A stretch of 64,000 bases of DNA, from NCBI RefSeq assembly GCF_029227855.1, contig NZ_CP074356.1, one strand, 5' to 3'. Source of the stretch: Escherichia coli (GTDB taxonomy: Bacteria; Pseudomonadota; Gammaproteobacteria; Enterobacterales; Enterobacteriaceae). The position numbers were made by a program, and so were the translations under genes. Below are positions 5,911 to 61,606 of this stretch, piece by piece. Under the pieces are notes generated by a model. The model was not told the origin of the DNA. It ran no database searches and saw only the letters and a program-made list of their open reading frames with translations. Position 1 is the stretch's first letter. The number at the start of each line of letters is the position of its first letter.

Positions 5911-7050
5911 ATGAGCGCGGGAAGCCCAAAATTCACCGTTCGCCGCATTGCGGCTTTGTCACTGGTTTCGCTATGGCTGGCAGGCTGTTCTGACACTTCA
6001 AATCCACCGGCCCCGGTCAGCTCCGTTAATGGCAATGCGCCTGCAAATACCAATTCTGGTATGTTGATTACGCCGCCGCCGAAAATGGGGACGACGTCTA
6101 CAGCTCAGCAACCGCAAATTCAGCCGGTACAGCAGCCACAAATTCAGGCAACTCAACAACCGCAAATCCAGCCGGTGCAGCCAGTAGCTCAGCAGCCGGT
6201 ACAGATGGAAAACGGACGCATCGTCTATAACCGTCAGTATGGGAACATTCCGAAAGGCAGTTATAGCGGCAGTACCTATACCGTGAAAAAAGGCGACACA
6301 CTTTTCTATATCGCCTGGATTACTGGCAACGATTTCCGTGACCTTGCTCAGCGCAACAATATTCAGGCACCATACGCGCTGAACGTTGGTCAGACCTTGC
6401 AGGTGGGTAATGCTTCCGGTACGCCAATCACTGGCGGAAATGCCATTACCCAGGCCGACGCAGCAGAGCAAGGAGTTGTGATCAAGCCTGCACAAAATTC
6501 CACCGTTGCTGTTGCGTCGCAACCGACAATTACGTATTCTGAGTCTTCGGGTGAACAGAGTGCTAACAAAATGTTGCCGAACAACAAGCCAACTGCGACC
6601 ACGGTCACAGCGCCTGTAACGGTACCAACAGCAAGCACAACCGAGCCGACTGTCAGCAGTACATCAACCAGTACGCCTATCTCCACCTGGCGCTGGCCGA
6701 CTGAGGGCAAAGTGATCGAAACCTTTGGCGCTTCTGAGGGGGGCAACAAGGGGATTGATATCGCAGGCAGCAAAGGACAGGCAATTATCGCGACCGCAGA
6801 TGGCCGCGTTGTTTATGCCGGTAACGCGCTGCGCGGCTACGGTAATCTGATTATCATCAAACATAATGATGATTACCTGAGTGCCTACGCCCATAACGAC
6901 ACAATGCTGGTCCGGGAACAACAAGAAGTGAAGGCGGGGCAAAAAATAGCAACCATGGGTAGCACCGGAACCAGTTCAACACGCTTGCATTTTGAAATTC
7001 GTTACAAGGGGAAATCCGTAAACCCGCTGCGTTATTTGCCGCAGCGATAA
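5911..7050 (+). CDS. nlpD: Murein hydrolase activator lipoprotein NlpD (LysM plus LytM/M23 domains)
   Basis: Track ORF 379 aa; lipobox LAGCS; Q/P-rich repeat; C-terminal M23-like domain; lies directly upstream of rpoS. Confidence 0.95.
6106..6203 (+). repeat. Imperfect tandem ~27-bp coding repeats inside nlpD, encoding QQPQIQPVQ-type units
   Basis: Repeated cagcaaccgcaaattcagccggtacag-like units visible in the sequence. Confidence 0.7.
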
Positions 7051-7112: not shown

Positions 7113-8105
7113 ATGAGTCAGAATACGCTGAAAGTTCATGATTTAAATGAAGATGCGGAATTTGATGAGAACGGAGTTGAGGTTTTTGACGAAAAGGCCT
7201 TAGTAGAAGAGGAACCCAGTGATAACGATTTGGCCGAAGAGGAACTGTTATCGCAGGGAGCCACACAGCGTGTGCTGGACGCGACTCAGCTTTACCTTGG
7301 TGAGATTGGTTATTCACCACTGTTAACGGCCGAAGAAGAAGTTTATTTTGCGCGTCGCGCACTGCGTGGAGATGTTGCCTCCCGCCGCCGGATGATCGAG
7401 AGTAACTTGCGTCTGGTGGTAAAAATTGCCCGCCGTTATGGCAATCGTGGTCTGGCGTTGCTGGACCTGATCGAAGAGGGCAACCTGGGGCTGATCCGCG
7501 CGGTAGAGAAGTTTGACCCGGAACGTGGTTTCCGCTTCTCAACATACGCAACCTGGTGGATTCGCCAGACGATCGAACGGGCGATTATGAACCAAACCCG
7601 TACTATTCGTTTGCCTATTCACATCGTAAAGGAGCTGAACGTTTACCTGCGAACCGCACGCGAGTTGTCCCATAAACTGGACCACGAACCAAGTGCGGAA
7701 GAGATCGCAGAGCAACTGGATAAGCCAGTTGATGACGTCAGCCGTATGCTTCGTCTTAACGAGCGCATTACCTCGGTAGACACCCCGCTGGGTGGTGATT
7801 CCGAAAAAGCGTTGCTGGACATCCTGGCCGATGAAAAAGAGAACGGTCCGGAAGATACCACGCAAGATGACGATATGAAGCAGAGCATCGTCAAATGGCT
7901 GTTCGAGCTGAACGCCAAACAGCGTGAAGTACTGGCACGTCGATTCGGTTTGCTGGGGTACGAAGCGGCAACACTGGAAGATGTAGGTCGTGAAATTGGC
8001 CTCACCCGTGAACGTGTTCGCCAGATTCAGGTTGAAGGCCTGCGCCGTTTGCGCGAAATCCTGCAAACGCAGGGGCTGAATATCGAAGCGCTGTTCCGCG
8101 AGTAA
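7113..8105 (+). CDS. rpoS: RNA polymerase sigma factor RpoS (sigma-38)
   Basis: Track ORF 7077..8105; start set to the ATG encoding [21 protein letters not shown], giving 330 aa; sigma-70 family regions present. Confidence 0.95.
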
Positions 8106-8122
8106 GTAAGCATCTGTCAGAA

Positions 8123-8152
8123 AGGCCAGTCTCAAGCGAGGCTGGCCTTTTT
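8123..8152 (+). terminator. Rho-independent terminator of rpoS
   Basis: Hairpin aggccag...ctggcct followed by TTTTT, 18 nt after the rpoS stop. Confidence 0.8.
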
Positions 8153-8154
8153 GT

Positions 8155-8865
8155 TGTGCACAGAAAACCCCCAGCTAGGCTGGGGGTTCCGGAAAGCTTT
8201 CAGCTTTAAGCCAGTTATTAAAACCCCTTTTGATTTGTTAAAACACCTTGCGGTCTGGCAACTGCAAGTGTCAAACAAGAAATCAAAAGGGGGTCCCAAT
8301 GGGGAACGAAAAGAGCTTAGCGCACACCCGATGGAACTGTAAATATCACATAGTTTTTGCGCCAAAATACCGAAGACAGGTGTTCTACAGAGAGAAGCGT
8401 AGAGCAATAGGCAGTATTTTGAGAAAGCTGTGTGAGTGGAAAAGTGTACGGATTCTGGAAGCTGAATGCTGTGCAGATCATATCCATATGCTTGTGGAGA
8501 TCCCGCCCAAAATGAGCGTATCCGGCTTTATGGGATATCTGAAAGGGAAAAGCAGTCTGATGCTTTACGAGCAGTTTGGTGATTTGAAATTCAAATACAG
8601 GAACAGGGAGTTCTGGTGCAGAGGGTACTACGTCGATACGGTGGGTAAGAACACGGCGAAGATACAGGATTACATAAAGCACCAGCTTGAAGAGGATAAA
8701 ATGGGAGAGCAGTTATCGATTCCCTATCCGGGCAGCCCGTTTACGGGCCGTAAGTAACGAAGTTGGATGCAAATGTCAGATCGTGTGCGCCTGTTAGGGC
8801 GCGGCTGGTAAGAGAGCCTTATAGGCGCATTTGAAAAACCTCCGGCTATGCCGGAGGATATTTAT
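8155..8865 (+). mobile_element. IS200-family insertion sequence (IS200/IS605 family); boundaries approximate
   Basis: Intact 152-aa Y1 HUH transposase with the HxH motif; hairpin at the left end (8166..8188); imperfect stem-loop around the RBS (8226..8290); hairpin at the right end (8839..8857); overall size about 0.7 kb as expected for IS200. Confidence 0.8.
8299..8757 (+). CDS. tnpA: IS200/IS605-family transposase TnpA (Y1 HUH)
   Basis: Track ORF 8248..8757 trimmed to the ATG preceded by an AAAAGGGGG Shine-Dalgarno; product 152 aa, MGNEKSLAHTRWNCKYHIVFAPKYRR...HIHMLVEIPPK, typical IS200 TnpA. Confidence 0.9.
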   Translation: MGNEKSLAHTRWNCKYHIVFAPKYRRQVFYREKRRAIGSILRKLCEWKSVRILEAECCADHIHMLVEIPPKMSVSGFMGYLKGKSSLMLYEQFGDLKFKYRNREFWCRGYYVDTVGKNTAKIQDYIKHQLEEDKMGEQLSIPYPGSPFTGRK

Positions 8866-8897
8866 TTCTTTTGGTTGGGGAGCCGGTGTGTTTGTGG

Positions 8898-8930
8898 GCT
8901 GGATAAGCCGCGATAGCGTCTCATCCGGCA
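8898..8930. repeat. REP-like palindromic element
   Basis: gctggataagccgcgatagcgtctcatccggca resembles REP units (ggataagc...catccggc inverted arms). Confidence 0.5.
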
Positions 8931-8939
8931 ATTTGCACC

Positions 8940-9347
8940 CTATGTGTTCATCATCTTGCGCACTAGCTGCATAAACAGCTCCTGCTCTTCTCCACTCAAA
9001 CGCCCCAAAAATTCCTCATCCACGCTGTCACCTATCGGTATCGCCGCAGCAAGTATCTTTTCGCCTTCGGCAGTCAGCCAGACAAAGCGTCGCCGCTTGT
9101 CAGCGGCGTCATGTTCACGTCTGACTAAGCCACGATTTTCCATTCTTGCCAACATTTCTGCCAGCGTTGCTTTGGTGCTGACGGCTGCTTCTATCAGTGC
9201 CACCTGTTCGATACCAGGCTTATCAGCAATGGCGCGCATCACCGCGTACTGTGGTTTGGTCAGGTCAGGTAACTCGTGCTGCCAGCGGGCCGTGTGTTGC
9301 TGAAAAAGCTGTCGTAACTGATGGAACGCTTTATTTCGTAACGCCAT
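8940..9347 (-). CDS. hosA: MarR/SlyA-family transcriptional regulator (HosA-like)
   Basis: Track ORF 135 aa with a winged-helix MarR fold signature; divergent from the UbiX/UbiD-type operon. Confidence 0.8.
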   Translation of the reverse strand: MALRNKAFHQLRQLFQQHTARWQHELPDLTKPQYAVMRAIADKPGIEQVALIEAAVSTKATLAEMLARMENRGLVRREHDAADKRRRFVWLTAEGEKILAAAIPIGDSVDEEFLGRLSGEEQELFMQLVRKMMNT

Positions 9348-60840: not shown

Positions 60841-60933
60841 GGTGAGGTGGCCGAGAGGCTGAAGGCGCTCCCCTGCTAAGGGAGTATGCGGTCAAAAGCT
60901 GCATCCGGGGTTCGAATCCCCGCCTCACCGCCA
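60841..60933 (+). tRNA. serV: tRNA-Ser (anticodon GCU)
   Basis: 93-nt type II tRNA, ggtgaggtggccgagaggc...ccgcctcaccgcca, with anticodon loop ctGCTaa and long variable arm. Confidence 0.95.
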
Positions 60934-60936
60934 TTT

Positions 60937-61013
60937 GCATCCGTAGCTCAGCTGGATAGAGTACTCGGCTACGAACCGAGCGGTCGGAGGTTCGAATCCT
61001 CCCGGATGCACCA
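60937..61013 (+). tRNA. argV: tRNA-Arg (anticodon ACG), copy 1
   Basis: 77-nt cloverleaf gcatccgtagctcagctggatagag...cctcccggatgcacca, anticodon loop ctACGaa; 3 nt after serV. Confidence 0.93.
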
Positions 61014-61128
61014 TATTCTACGTACTTTCAGCGATGAAGGTATGGAAGAGGTGGCGGTAATAACCGCAGGCACCAGGGAGGATAACGTTGCTTTAGCAAC
61101 GGCCCGAAGGGCGAGCCGCAAGGCGAGT

Positions 61129-61147
61129 AATCCTCCCGGATGCACCA
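61129..61147 (+). other. Orphan 3' fragment of a tRNA-Arg gene (T-loop/acceptor remnant) inside the 198-nt spacer
   Basis: aatcctcccggatgcacca is identical to the last 19 nt of the intact tRNA-Arg copies but has no 5' acceptor strand; the spacer after it matches the other inter-tRNA spacers. Confidence 0.7.
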
Positions 61148-61211
61148 TCTCTTACTTGATACGGCTTTAGTAGCGGTATCAAAAAATCTGAAGTAAAGTA
61201 AGTTTCCCGAT

Positions 61212-61288
61212 GCATCCGTAGCTCAGCTGGATAGAGTACTCGGCTACGAACCGAGCGGTCGGAGGTTCGAATCCTCCCGGATGCACCA
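61212..61288 (+). tRNA. argY: tRNA-Arg (anticodon ACG), copy 2
   Basis: Identical 77-nt sequence to copy 1. Confidence 0.93.
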
Positions 61289-61350
61289 TCTCTTACTTGA
61301 TATGGCTTTAGCAGCGGTATCAATATCAGCAGTAAAATAAATTTCCCGAT

Positions 61351-61427
61351 GCATCCGTAGCTCAGCTGGATAGAGTACTCGGCTACGAACCGAGCGGTCG
61401 GAGGTTCGAATCCTCCCGGATGCACCA
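61351..61427 (+). tRNA. argZ: tRNA-Arg (anticodon ACG), copy 3
   Basis: Identical 77-nt sequence to copy 1. Confidence 0.93.
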
Positions 61428-61529
61428 TATTCTCCGTAATCATCAGTGATGATGGTTAAGATGGATTTTCTTATTTGATATGGCTTTAGTAGCGGTATCA
61501 ATATCAGCAGTAAAATAAGTTTTCCCGAT

Positions 61530-61606
61530 GCATCCGTAGCTCAGCTGGATAGAGTACTCGGCTACGAACCGAGCGGTCGGAGGTTCGAATCCTCCCGGAT
61601 GCACCA
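61530..61606 (+). tRNA. argQ: tRNA-Arg (anticodon ACG), copy 4
   Basis: Identical 77-nt sequence to copy 1. Confidence 0.93.

What the first reader, a model, noticed from the sequence alone, without database searches (positions are those of the whole stretch)
8166..8290. IS200 leader structures: left-end hairpin and RBS-sequestering stem-loop
An 8-bp perfect hairpin (aaccccca-gctaggc-tgggggtt) is followed by a long imperfect stem-loop (8226..8290) that covers the AAAAGGGGG Shine-Dalgarno of tnpA. This matches the known dual repression of IS200 by terminating read-through from rpoS and occluding translation initiation.
Basis: partly seen in the sequence, partly recalled or inferred. Interest (0 to 1): 0.25.

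Follow-up and report, generated by a model that had tools for sequence, protein, structure and literature searches.

The report
IS200 transposase leader: known repressive hairpins
The two hairpins are real and are the already well-studied control structures at the left end of the small mobile element IS200, here an E. coli IS200C copy sitting just after the rpoS terminator, so the finding is correct but ordinary.

Summary
Observation confirmed and interpretation supported; nothing new. Window 8166-8289 (+) is a full-length Rfam RF01405 match (146 bits against a cut-off of 56). It lies in a 715-bp IS200C copy (about 8153-8867) inserted, without target duplication, in the T-run of the intact rpoS terminator. 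The first hairpin is a perfect 10-bp stem with a 3-nt loop (8166-8175/8179-8188), not 8 bp. The long stem-loop is 8224-8292. Its basal helix pairs CCCCUUUUGAUUU with AAAUCAAAAGGGG, burying the Shine-Dalgarno (8285-8293; pairing probability about 1.0 in four transcript contexts) upstream of the tnpA ATG at 8299. With an offset of 8154 these match the published IS200 features: terminator nt 12-34, stem-loop nt 69-138, antisense art200 start nt 153/154. Both helices covary across about 75 IS200 relatives, including Firmicutes, and 70 of 76 leaders sequester their Shine-Dalgarno when folded alone. Three caveats apply. rpoS keeps its own terminator 13 nt upstream, so the IS hairpin is only a second barrier. 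The hairpin lacks a U-tract in the sense direction but has one antisense, and it resembles the right-end hairpin, so it is probably also the transposase's single-strand DNA binding site.

The parts
7113..8105 (+). rpoS coding sequence (upstream host gene)
   Evidence: Sigma-70 r1.2/r2/r3/r4 domains. RefSeq annotates rpoS as 993 nt ending at this stop in the 100%-identical genome NZ_AP045174.
8118..8153 (+). rpoS intrinsic terminator: 16-nt arms 8118-8133/8138-8153 with T-run 8148-8152. It is intact and host-derived.
   Evidence: Inverted repeat I2. DNA fold -13.8 kcal/mol, z = -5.4. Present unchanged at the empty site of strain KE55.
8153..8867 (+). IS200C insertion sequence, 715 bp. The ends are ambiguous by up to 3 nt because of flanking T residues. 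No target-site duplication. IS200 nt 1 in Salmonella numbering is 8155.
   Evidence: Empty site GGCTGGCCTTTTT^CTTTTGG in KE55 versus the occupied site. Limits of similarity among independent copies after atpC and fadR. Yersinia IS1541 aligns over 8151-8867 at 87%.
8166..8188 (+). Left-end hairpin (IS200 nt 12-34): perfect 10-bp stem, loop TAG. Published as a bidirectional terminator; probably also the left-end hairpin bound by the transposase on single-stranded DNA.
   Evidence: Seven of its 10 pairs show compensatory changes across 75 relatives, 98.5% of cells paired. It shares its architecture with the right-end hairpin. Published role: PMC4513863, PMC5435999.
8193..8207 (+). Small hairpin AAAGCU-UUC-AGCUUU at the published tnpA transcription start (about nt 40 = 8194).
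   Evidence: Present in the centroid fold and in the Rfam consensus structure. The three inner pairs covary (GC/CG, CG/GC, UA/CG); the outer pairs are poorly conserved (helix 2).
8224..8292 (+). tnpA 5'UTR stem-loop (IS200 nt 70-138). The lower helix 8224-8236/8280-8292 sequesters the Shine-Dalgarno. Upper helix 8243-8254/8261-8271, with the 6-nt loop CUGGCA at 8255-8260.
   Evidence: All 13 lower-helix pairs show compensatory changes, 96.3% paired. Published lower-stem mutations at -75..-69 (= 8224-8230) derepress 20-50-fold.
8285..8293 (+). Shine-Dalgarno AAAAGGGGG of tnpA
   Evidence: Sequence. Pairing probability 0.99-1.0 for 8285-8292. Published Shine-Dalgarno AAGGGGGU.
8299..8757 (+). 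tnpA: 152-aa Y1 (HUH) transposase, HIH at residues 61-63, Tyr125.
   Evidence: Pfam PF01797, 130.7 bits. Motifs. Y125F is the published catalytically dead mutant.
8219..8308 (-). Inferred art200 (STnc490) antisense RNA gene: start at 8308/8307, a hairpin complementary to 8224-8292, then UUUUAAUAA.
   Evidence: Mapped from the published start at nt 153/154 and length of 90 nt. Minus-strand fold -35.5 kcal/mol, z = -4.7, followed by a U-run. Expression was not tested here.
8315..8343 (-). Candidate art200 promoter: -35 TTTACA (8343-8338), 17-nt spacer, -10 CTAAGC (8320-8315).
   Evidence: Read from the minus strand. It fits the published description of a good -35 and an almost unrecognisable -10. 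The consensus scan did not call it.
8839..8857 (+). Right-end hairpin CCTCCGGC-TAT-GCCGGAGG, preceded by AAAAA and followed by ATATTTATTT. It looks like a terminator on both strands and is the probable right-end transposase-binding hairpin.
   Evidence: The same architecture is found at the right ends of most relatives.

Best explanation
Window 8166-8292 is the regulatory left end of an intact IS200C insertion sequence, inserted in the T-run of the rpoS terminator.

The 10-bp GC-rich hairpin (IS200 nt 12-34) lies upstream of the tnpA transcription start. It blocks transcription that enters the element from outside; here that means whatever escapes the rpoS terminator 13 nt upstream.

The tnpA mRNA starts at about 8194. 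Its 5'UTR folds into a long stem-loop whose basal helix pairs CCCCUUUUGAUUU (8224-8236) with AAAUCAAAAGGGG (8280-8292). The Shine-Dalgarno is therefore double-stranded and 30S subunits cannot bind.

The same inverted repeat read on the minus strand is the body and terminator of the antisense RNA art200, which pairs with the upper stem-loop and also blocks ribosome binding. Hfq adds a fourth layer. Together these keep transposase synthesis, and so transposition, very low.

Shown here: the structures, their statistical support, their covariation, Shine-Dalgarno sequestration in silico, and the coordinate match to published IS200. Taken from the literature (experiments on Salmonella IS200, some done in E. 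coli): termination, translational repression, art200 and Hfq. Inferred: that this E. coli copy behaves the same way.
For: - Rfam RF01405 matches full length, 146 bits against a cut-off of 56.
- The ORF is a Y1_Tnp transposase with HUH and Y125, annotated IS200C in RefSeq.
- Hairpin and stem-loop are in the sequence, with z from -3.3 to -5.1 and 0 of 200 shuffles as good.
- Shine-Dalgarno pairing probability is about 1.0 in four transcript contexts.
- A structure model finds the leader upstream of tnpA in 76 of the 80 relatives' loci. On that alignment 91% of cells are paired against 71% when shuffled, 35 of 41 pairs have compensatory changes, and slid controls give 35-47% paired.
- Folding each leader alone, with no alignment involved, gives Shine-Dalgarno pairing of at least 0.8 in 70 of 76 leaders (mean 0.92 against 0.57 when the upstream part is shuffled).
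- Specific compensatory examples: Vibrio UG->CA paired with CA->UG in the lower stem; Bacillota C->U paired with G->A inside the Shine-Dalgarno itself.
- Published coordinates map with a single offset: terminator 12-34, stem-loop 69-138, lower-stem mutations -75..-69, 6-nt terminal loop, C/A-rich single-stranded -26..-21 (= 8273-8278), art200 start 153/154.
- Published effects: about 85% termination; 20-fold more ribosome binding in vitro and 50-fold more tnpA-lacZ expression in vivo for lower-stem mutants.
Against: - Nothing here measures RNA or protein in this strain.
- In the sense direction the left-end hairpin has no U-tract (UUCCGGAA; mean 2.5 T in 8 nt across 62 relatives). The antisense side has one (UUUUCUGU; at least 5 T in 53 of 62). 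The simple terminator scan did not call it on either strand. Its conservation is therefore not explained by canonical sense-direction termination alone.
- rpoS keeps an intact terminator immediately upstream, so the contribution of the IS hairpin at this locus may be small.
- The covariation alignment was fitted to the structure, which inflates pair counts. This is offset by the slid controls and by the alignment-free folding.
Confidence: 0.9

Rival explanations
1. The left-end hairpin is conserved mainly as a DNA structure. It would be the subterminal hairpin that the Y1 transposase binds on the single-stranded top strand, as in IS608 and ISDra2, with termination a secondary or by-product role. 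The A-run 5' of the hairpin foot would act as the guide that pairs with the T-run target.
For: - Left-end and right-end hairpins share one architecture on the same strand: A-rich run, CC[A/C]C..G. stem of 8-10 bp, 3-nt loop.C..G[T/G]GG. This holds in the window (AAAACCCCCAGC-TAG-GCTGGGGG versus AAAAACCTCCGGC-TAT-GCCGGAGG) and in most of about 75 relatives from two phyla.
- Both hairpins are stable as single-stranded DNA, z = -4.3 and -5.5.
- The loop and flanks (GAAAACC...GGTTC) are conserved while the stem covaries.
- There is no sense-strand U-tract in 58 of 62 relatives.
- Family mechanism: TnpA binds 20-25-nt subterminal hairpins at both ends, and a guide tetranucleotide 5' of the hairpin foot selects the cleavage and target site (PMC6006769).
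- The element sits after T-runs at rpoS, atpC and fadR, and in at least 34 of 65 diverse loci.
Against: - Published experiments attribute about 85% termination of incoming transcripts to this inverted repeat, so the RNA-level role is real.
- The two roles do not exclude each other.
- No binding or cleavage data for IS200 TnpA were found or generated here.
- A-run/T-run pairing as guide and target is an analogy only.
Confidence: 0.55
2. The long inverted repeat is conserved because it is the antisense RNA art200 (its structured body and intrinsic terminator), and Shine-Dalgarno sequestration on the sense strand is incidental.
For: - The minus strand 8308-8212 folds into an equally significant hairpin (-35.5 kcal/mol, z = -4.7) followed by UUUUAAUAA, at the place expected for the 3' end of the 90-nt art200.
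- A promoter fitting the published description lies at 8343-8315.
- art200 is abundant and represses tnpA in Salmonella and E. coli.
Against: - Lower-stem mutations derepress tnpA 20-50-fold independently of art200.
- art200 pairing involves only the upper 40 nt.
- Compensatory changes occur within the Shine-Dalgarno itself as it shifts from GGGGG to GGAGG.
- One upper-stem pair is G-U in 63 of 75 sequences, which would be a C-A mismatch on the antisense strand.
- The most likely reading is that both strands use the repeat.
Confidence: 0.15
3. The leader's main present-day role is as a domesticated trans-acting small RNA (5'tnpA, about 90-110 nt) that regulates host genes, as reported in Salmonella, rather than control of transposition.
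For: [quoted passage not shown] That corresponds to about 8212-8301 here, which is exactly the stem-loop. The product represses invF and other regulons (PMC5435999; PMC12594629). IS200 is nearly immobile yet conserved.
Against: No E. coli target is known. The same structure is conserved in Firmicutes elements that have no such host targets, which fits a role intrinsic to the element. This copy is one of many in the strain: 24 places match in the identical genome.
Confidence: 0.1

Closest known systems
Salmonella IS200 left end: terminator hairpin (nt 12-34) and the 5'UTR stem-loop that sequesters the Shine-Dalgarno (nt 69-138) (Beuzon et al. 1999, as cited in Ellis et al. 2015, PMC4513863)
   Same: Same positions with one offset (8154). 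Same Shine-Dalgarno (AAGGGGGU), same 6-nt terminal loop, same lower stem, same distance to the ATG (nt 145) and the same 152-aa TnpA with Y125.
   Different: This is the E. coli IS200C variant. By empty-site comparison it measures 715 bp, against the quoted 707 bp; the difference lies in the T-rich termini. A few substitutions separate it from the Rfam consensus in unpaired or compensated positions. It sits directly behind the rpoS terminator.
art200 / STnc490 (Rfam RF01405), the Hfq-binding antisense RNA of IS200
   Same: The region matches the Rfam model end to end. On the minus strand it carries the published start position, a matching promoter and a terminator-like 3' end.
   Different: The Rfam model matches the tnpA-sense strand and includes the left-end hairpin. 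The RNA named STnc490/art200 is antisense and spans about nt 154 to 64. In effect, the Rfam hit identifies the IS200 leader rather than art200 itself.
IS1541 of Yersinia pestis/pseudotuberculosis and other IS200-group elements
   Same: 87% DNA identity over the whole element. The left-end hairpin, the lower stem and the right-end hairpin are identical.
   Different: Substitutions in the upper stem and in linker regions; different host flanks.
IS608 / ISDra2 subterminal hairpins recognised by Y1 (HUH) transposases
   Same: Hairpins of about 20 nt near both ends on the same strand, no terminal inverted repeats, no target duplication, and insertion 3' of a short specific sequence.
   Different: For IS200, transposase binding, the cleavage sites and the guide/target rule have not been shown; I infer them by analogy. 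The IS200 left-end hairpin is a perfect palindrome and also has a documented role in transcription termination.
IS10 RNA-IN / RNA-OUT and other transposase translational controls
   Same: An antisense RNA and mRNA structure limit 30S binding to the transposase start site.
   Different: No sequence relationship. IS200 adds an intrinsic Shine-Dalgarno-sequestering helix and an entry terminator. Hfq acts independently of the antisense RNA.

Membership tests
Rfam RF01405 (STnc490 / IS200 leader) | Covariance-model score at or above the curated gathering threshold (56 bits) | tested here: met
   146.1 bits, E = 7.5e-30, model positions 1-124 of 124, window 8166-8289 +.
IS200 group of the IS200/IS605 family | A single ORF encoding a ~150-aa Y1 HUH transposase | tested here: met
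   152 aa; Pfam Y1_Tnp 130.7 bits against a cut-off of 23; HIH at 61-63 and Y125. There is no room for a tnpB gene within the 715 bp.
IS200 group of the IS200/IS605 family | No target-site duplication and no terminal inverted repeats | tested here: met
   Empty versus occupied site: 715 bp inserted between GGCCTTTTT and CTTTTGG with no duplicated bases. The termini are not inverted repeats of each other.
IS200 group of the IS200/IS605 family | Subterminal hairpins at both ends on the same strand | tested here: met
   Left end 8166-8188 and right end 8839-8857, similar in architecture.
IS200 regulatory left end (Beuzon 1999; Ellis 2015) | Perfect palindrome at nt 12-34, upstream of the tnpA start at about nt 40 | tested here: met
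   8166-8188 equals nt 12-34 when nt 1 = 8155.
IS200 regulatory left end (Beuzon 1999; Ellis 2015) | 5'UTR stem-loop at nt 69-138 that base-pairs the Shine-Dalgarno | tested here: met
   8224-8292 equals nt 70-138. Shine-Dalgarno pairing probability about 1.0. Covariation in all 13 lower-helix pairs.
IS200 regulatory left end (Beuzon 1999; Ellis 2015) | The hairpin actually terminates incoming transcription (about 85%) | not testable with these tools
   Known only from the literature. On sequence grounds there is no sense-strand U-tract and the scan makes no terminator call.
IS200 regulatory left end (Beuzon 1999; Ellis 2015) | Antisense RNA art200 transcribed from nt 153/154 across the 5'UTR | tested here: inconclusive
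   A matching promoter-like sequence, start position, hairpin and U-run are on the minus strand. Transcription cannot be tested here, and the consensus promoter scan found nothing.
Canonical rho-independent terminator (sense direction) | GC-rich hairpin followed directly by a U-tract | tested here: not met
   The hairpin is followed by UUCCGGAA (2 U in 8). Relatives average 2.5, and 4 of 62 have at least 5. On the antisense strand the feature is met: UUUUCUGU, at least 5 in 53 of 62.

The most novel reading that the evidence does not exclude
The left-end hairpin is first of all the transposase's single-strand DNA recognition hairpin. The conserved A-run at its 5' foot (GAAAA; AAAAA at the right end) would act as an IS608-style guide that pairs with oligo-T. 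That would make IS200-group elements seek the T-run of host intrinsic terminators, which would explain why copies in Proteobacteria and Firmicutes alike sit directly behind terminators. Transcriptional insulation would then come largely from the chosen site rather than from the element's own hairpin.
Probability: 0.3. Interest if true: 0.35.

Novelty: already known. Interest (0 to 1): 0.08.

Why it matters
It matters little as a discovery. The structures, their positions and their functions were established for IS200 between 1999 and 2017 and are catalogued in Rfam.

The check is useful as annotation. It identifies the region between rpoS and the MarR-family gene in this strain as an intact IS200C insertion. 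It shows that the rpoS terminator is untouched. It also flags that the leader encodes an antisense RNA (art200) and a potential 5'UTR-derived small RNA, either of which could show up in transcriptomes near rpoS.

The covariation seen across two phyla gives clean comparative support for a structure so far studied mostly in Salmonella.

Tried and rejected
- Chance or artefact: rejected by shuffles, the Rfam E-value and covariation.
- Reading the upstream hairpin 8118-8153 as part of the IS, because other copies matched from query positions 19-32: rejected. Alignment showed that those copies lie behind different host terminators (atpC, fadR) that merely resemble each other, and the rpoS terminator is present at the empty site.
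- A plain MAFFT alignment with RNAalifold recovered only the left-end hairpin and the upper stem, because indels misaligned the lower stem in Firmicutes. I replaced it with a covariance-model alignment plus alignment-free folding.
- A direct Salmonella IS200 reference copy was not obtained. A plasmid search with the Rfam consensus returned Yersinia first, and the genome-contig scan returned no Salmonella among its 80 loci. The comparison therefore rests on the Rfam model and on published coordinates.
- Beuzon et al. 1999 (PMC148624) is not held. Its results are cited through PMC4513863, PMC5435999 and PMC2515195.
- The consensus promoter scan found no sigma-70 promoter for tnpA or art200. This agrees with the published weak or atypical promoters but adds no support.
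- Searches failed on term syntax. One search was an incomplete script with no output.

Full report
**What is there.** The window is E. coli chromosome. The stretch 8100-8950 is 100% identical to strain JNEC-KY178, where RefSeq annotates nlpD, rpoS, an "IS200/IS605-like element IS200C family transposase", a MarR-family regulator and a hydroxyarylic acid decarboxylase operon. The ORF at 8299-8757 encodes a 152-aa Y1_Tnp protein (Pfam 130.7 bits) with HIH at residues 61-63 and Tyr125. Y125F is the published catalytically dead IS200 mutant. A scan of the whole window against Rfam gives a full-length match of RF01405 "STnc490" at 8166-8289 on the + strand (146.1 bits, cut-off 56, E = 7.5e-30). These are almost exactly the coordinates of the finding.

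**Check of the observation.**
- The first hairpin is AACCCCCAGC-TAG-GCTGGGGGTT. It is a perfect 10-bp stem with a 3-nt loop, arms 8166-8175 and 8179-8188. As RNA it folds at -18.0 kcal/mol, z = -3.3. As DNA it folds at -11.7 kcal/mol, z = -4.3.
- The long stem-loop spans 8224-8292. Its lower helix is 8224-8236/8280-8292, its upper helix is 8243-8254/8261-8271, and its loop is the 6-nt CUGGCA. The fold gives -36.6 kcal/mol, z = -5.1, with 0 of 200 shuffles as good.
- The Shine-Dalgarno AAAAGGGGG is at 8285-8293 and the ATG at 8299. Positions 8285-8292 have pairing probability 0.99-1.00 whether the RNA begins at the published tnpA start, at IS nt 1, or in rpoS, and when the RNA is extended to 8500.

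**Limits and site of the element.** Strain KE55 has the empty site ...GGCTGGCCTTTTT^CTTTTGGTTGGGG.... The occupied site carries 715 extra bases (8153-8867, with up to 3 nt of ambiguity from flanking T residues) and no target duplication, as expected for the IS200/IS605 family. The insertion lies in the T-run of the rpoS intrinsic terminator (arms 8118-8133/8138-8153), which stays intact with five T residues. Independent IS200C copies lie in the same way behind the atpC and fadR terminators. A second IS200 variant, about 94% identical, occupies the same rpoS T-run in other strains with a junction that differs by 3 nt.

**Comparison with published IS200.** Ellis et al. 2015 (PMC4513863) give these features:
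- a 707-bp element;
- a terminator inverted repeat at nt 12-34;
- a tnpA start at about nt 40;
- a 5'UTR inverted repeat at nt 69-138 that sequesters the Shine-Dalgarno (AAGGGGGU);
- lower-stem mutations at -75..-69;
- a six-residue terminal loop;
- a single-stranded C/A-rich stretch at -26..-21;

Setting nt 1 = 8155 maps every one of these onto the window. The hairpin is 8166-8188, the tnpA start is about 8194, and the stem-loop is 8223/8224-8292. The lower-stem mutations fall at 8224-8230, the loop at 8255-8260 and the AAACAA stretch at 8273-8278. The ATG is nt 145 and the art200 start is 8307/8308.

On the minus strand there is TTTACA (8343-8338), a 17-nt spacer and CTAAGC (8320-8315), ending 7 nt before the start. 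This fits the paper's remark that the -35 is good and the -10 almost unrecognisable. The minus-strand RNA 8308-8212 folds into a hairpin (-35.5 kcal/mol, z = -4.7) followed by UUUUAAUAA, about where a 90-nt art200 should end.

The literature reports about 85% termination of upstream transcripts by the left-end repeat. [quoted passage not shown] It also reports repression by art200 (15-fold) and by Hfq. In Salmonella the stem-loop region is additionally released as a stable small RNA, 5'tnpA.

**Comparative evidence generated here.**
- A protein-guided scan of species-representative genomes returned 80 loci with TnpA relatives at 66-94% identity. They come from Enterobacterales, Vibrio, Desulfovibrio, Sutterella and many Firmicutes.
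- Rfam RF01405 matched 18 of the 20 loci tested, 16 of them above its gathering score.
- A covariance model built from 11 leaders matched 76 of the 80 loci, always just upstream of tnpA on the sense strand.
- On that alignment 91.1% of cells are standard pairs (70.7% after shuffling; 35-47% when partners are slid). Compensatory changes occur in 35 of 41 pairs: 7 of 10 in the left-end hairpin, all 13 in the lower helix and 10 of 11 in the upper helix.
- Because the alignment was fitted to the model, I also folded each leader on its own. The Shine-Dalgarno core has pairing probability of at least 0.8 in 70 of 76 leaders (mean 0.92, against 0.57 with the upstream sequence shuffled).
- Examples visible by eye: UG->CA with CA->UG in Vibrio, and C->U with G->A inside the Shine-Dalgarno of a Bacillota element.

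- At this locus, "read-through from rpoS" must first pass the intact rpoS terminator 13 nt upstream.
- Taking the GC core of the stem (the terminal A-U pairs melted), the left-end hairpin is followed by UUCCGGAA in the sense direction and by UUUUCUGU in the antisense direction. Across 62 distinct relatives the sense side averages 2.5 T in 8 nt (at least 5 in only 4), and the antisense side averages 5.6 (at least 5 in 53). The simple terminator scan called the right-end hairpin on both strands but not the left-end hairpin. What is conserved is therefore not a canonical sense-direction terminator.
- The left-end and right-end hairpins share an architecture in the window and in most relatives: an A-run, then CC[A/C]C..G., a 3-nt loop, then .C..G[T/G]GG. 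This is what the family mechanism predicts for the hairpins that TnpA binds on single-stranded DNA (PMC6006769). I conclude that the left-end hairpin very probably has this DNA-level role as well. That is an inference by analogy and was not tested.

**Verdict.** It describes a textbook feature of a known element, in a known variant (IS200C), catalogued in Rfam. Novelty: already known. Interest is low.

Noticed in passing
window 8118-8165; L001-L003 left junctions; L006-L085 upstream of the leader: IS200-group elements sit directly 3' of a host terminator-like hairpin plus T-run. Examples are rpoS, atpC and fadR in E. coli. Among diverse loci a strict rule finds 34 of 65 (many more by eye), against 1 of 62 at a control position 230 nt further upstream. 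The junction (T)n-TTGT(A/G)..GAA|AACC is conserved. A 2026 preprint (10.1101/2025.07.22.666184) reports terminator-like sequences enriched upstream of ISs, most strongly for IS200/IS605, so the statistical pattern is known. Whether it reflects target choice or survival of harmless insertions remains open.
   Followed up: partly
window 8160-8165 and 8834-8838: The bases just 5' of both hairpin feet are A-runs (GAAAA at the left end, AAAAA at the right end). They are conserved across relatives and complementary to the T-run target and to the T-rich right terminus. This resembles the guide/target arrangement of IS608, but it is only an analogy.
   Followed up: partly
window 8166-8289 (+) versus 8219-8308 (-): Rfam RF01405 is named after STnc490/art200, which is the antisense RNA. 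The model, however, matches the tnpA-sense strand and includes the left-end hairpin, which art200 does not cover. Annotation pipelines will therefore place an 'STnc490 sRNA' on the wrong strand and with the wrong extent.
   Followed up: partly
L086 (E. coli E600003) versus window 8148-8160: A different IS200 variant (about 94% identical, transposase WP_000502112) occupies the same rpoS terminator T-run in other E. coli lineages, with a left junction 3 nt shorter (GGCCTTTTTGTGCACAG versus GGCCTTTTTGTTGTGCACAG). This suggests either independent insertions at one site or conversion between copies.
   Followed up: partly
L004 1261-1958 (NZ_AP045174); the corresponding window region upstream of rpoS: In the otherwise identical reference genome an IS1A element is annotated between nlpD and rpoS. 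In the window nlpD (5911-7050) is followed directly by rpoS with no room for an IS1, so the window's strain differs from JNEC-KY178 at that point.
   Followed up: no
plasmid hits H71-H74: Several E. coli plasmids carry a ~139-bp sequence 75% identical to the IS200 left end only (query positions 13-151), with no transposase match. These could be divergent leader remnants or non-autonomous derivatives.
   Followed up: no
window 8786-8829: A second inverted repeat lies between the tnpA stop and the right-end hairpin (TGCGCCTGTTAGG / CCTTATAGGCGCA, 13-nt arms, 85% complementary). It is conserved in Yersinia IS1541, and its function was not examined.
   Followed up: no
window 60841-61603: A cluster of five tRNA genes; four of them give identical Rfam scores (67.1 bits).
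   Followed up: no
L018 153-288: A cobalamin riboswitch (RF00174, 40.3 bits) lies about 170 nt upstream of the IS200-like element in Pseudoflavonifractor capillosus. It is host context and probably unrelated.
   Followed up: no
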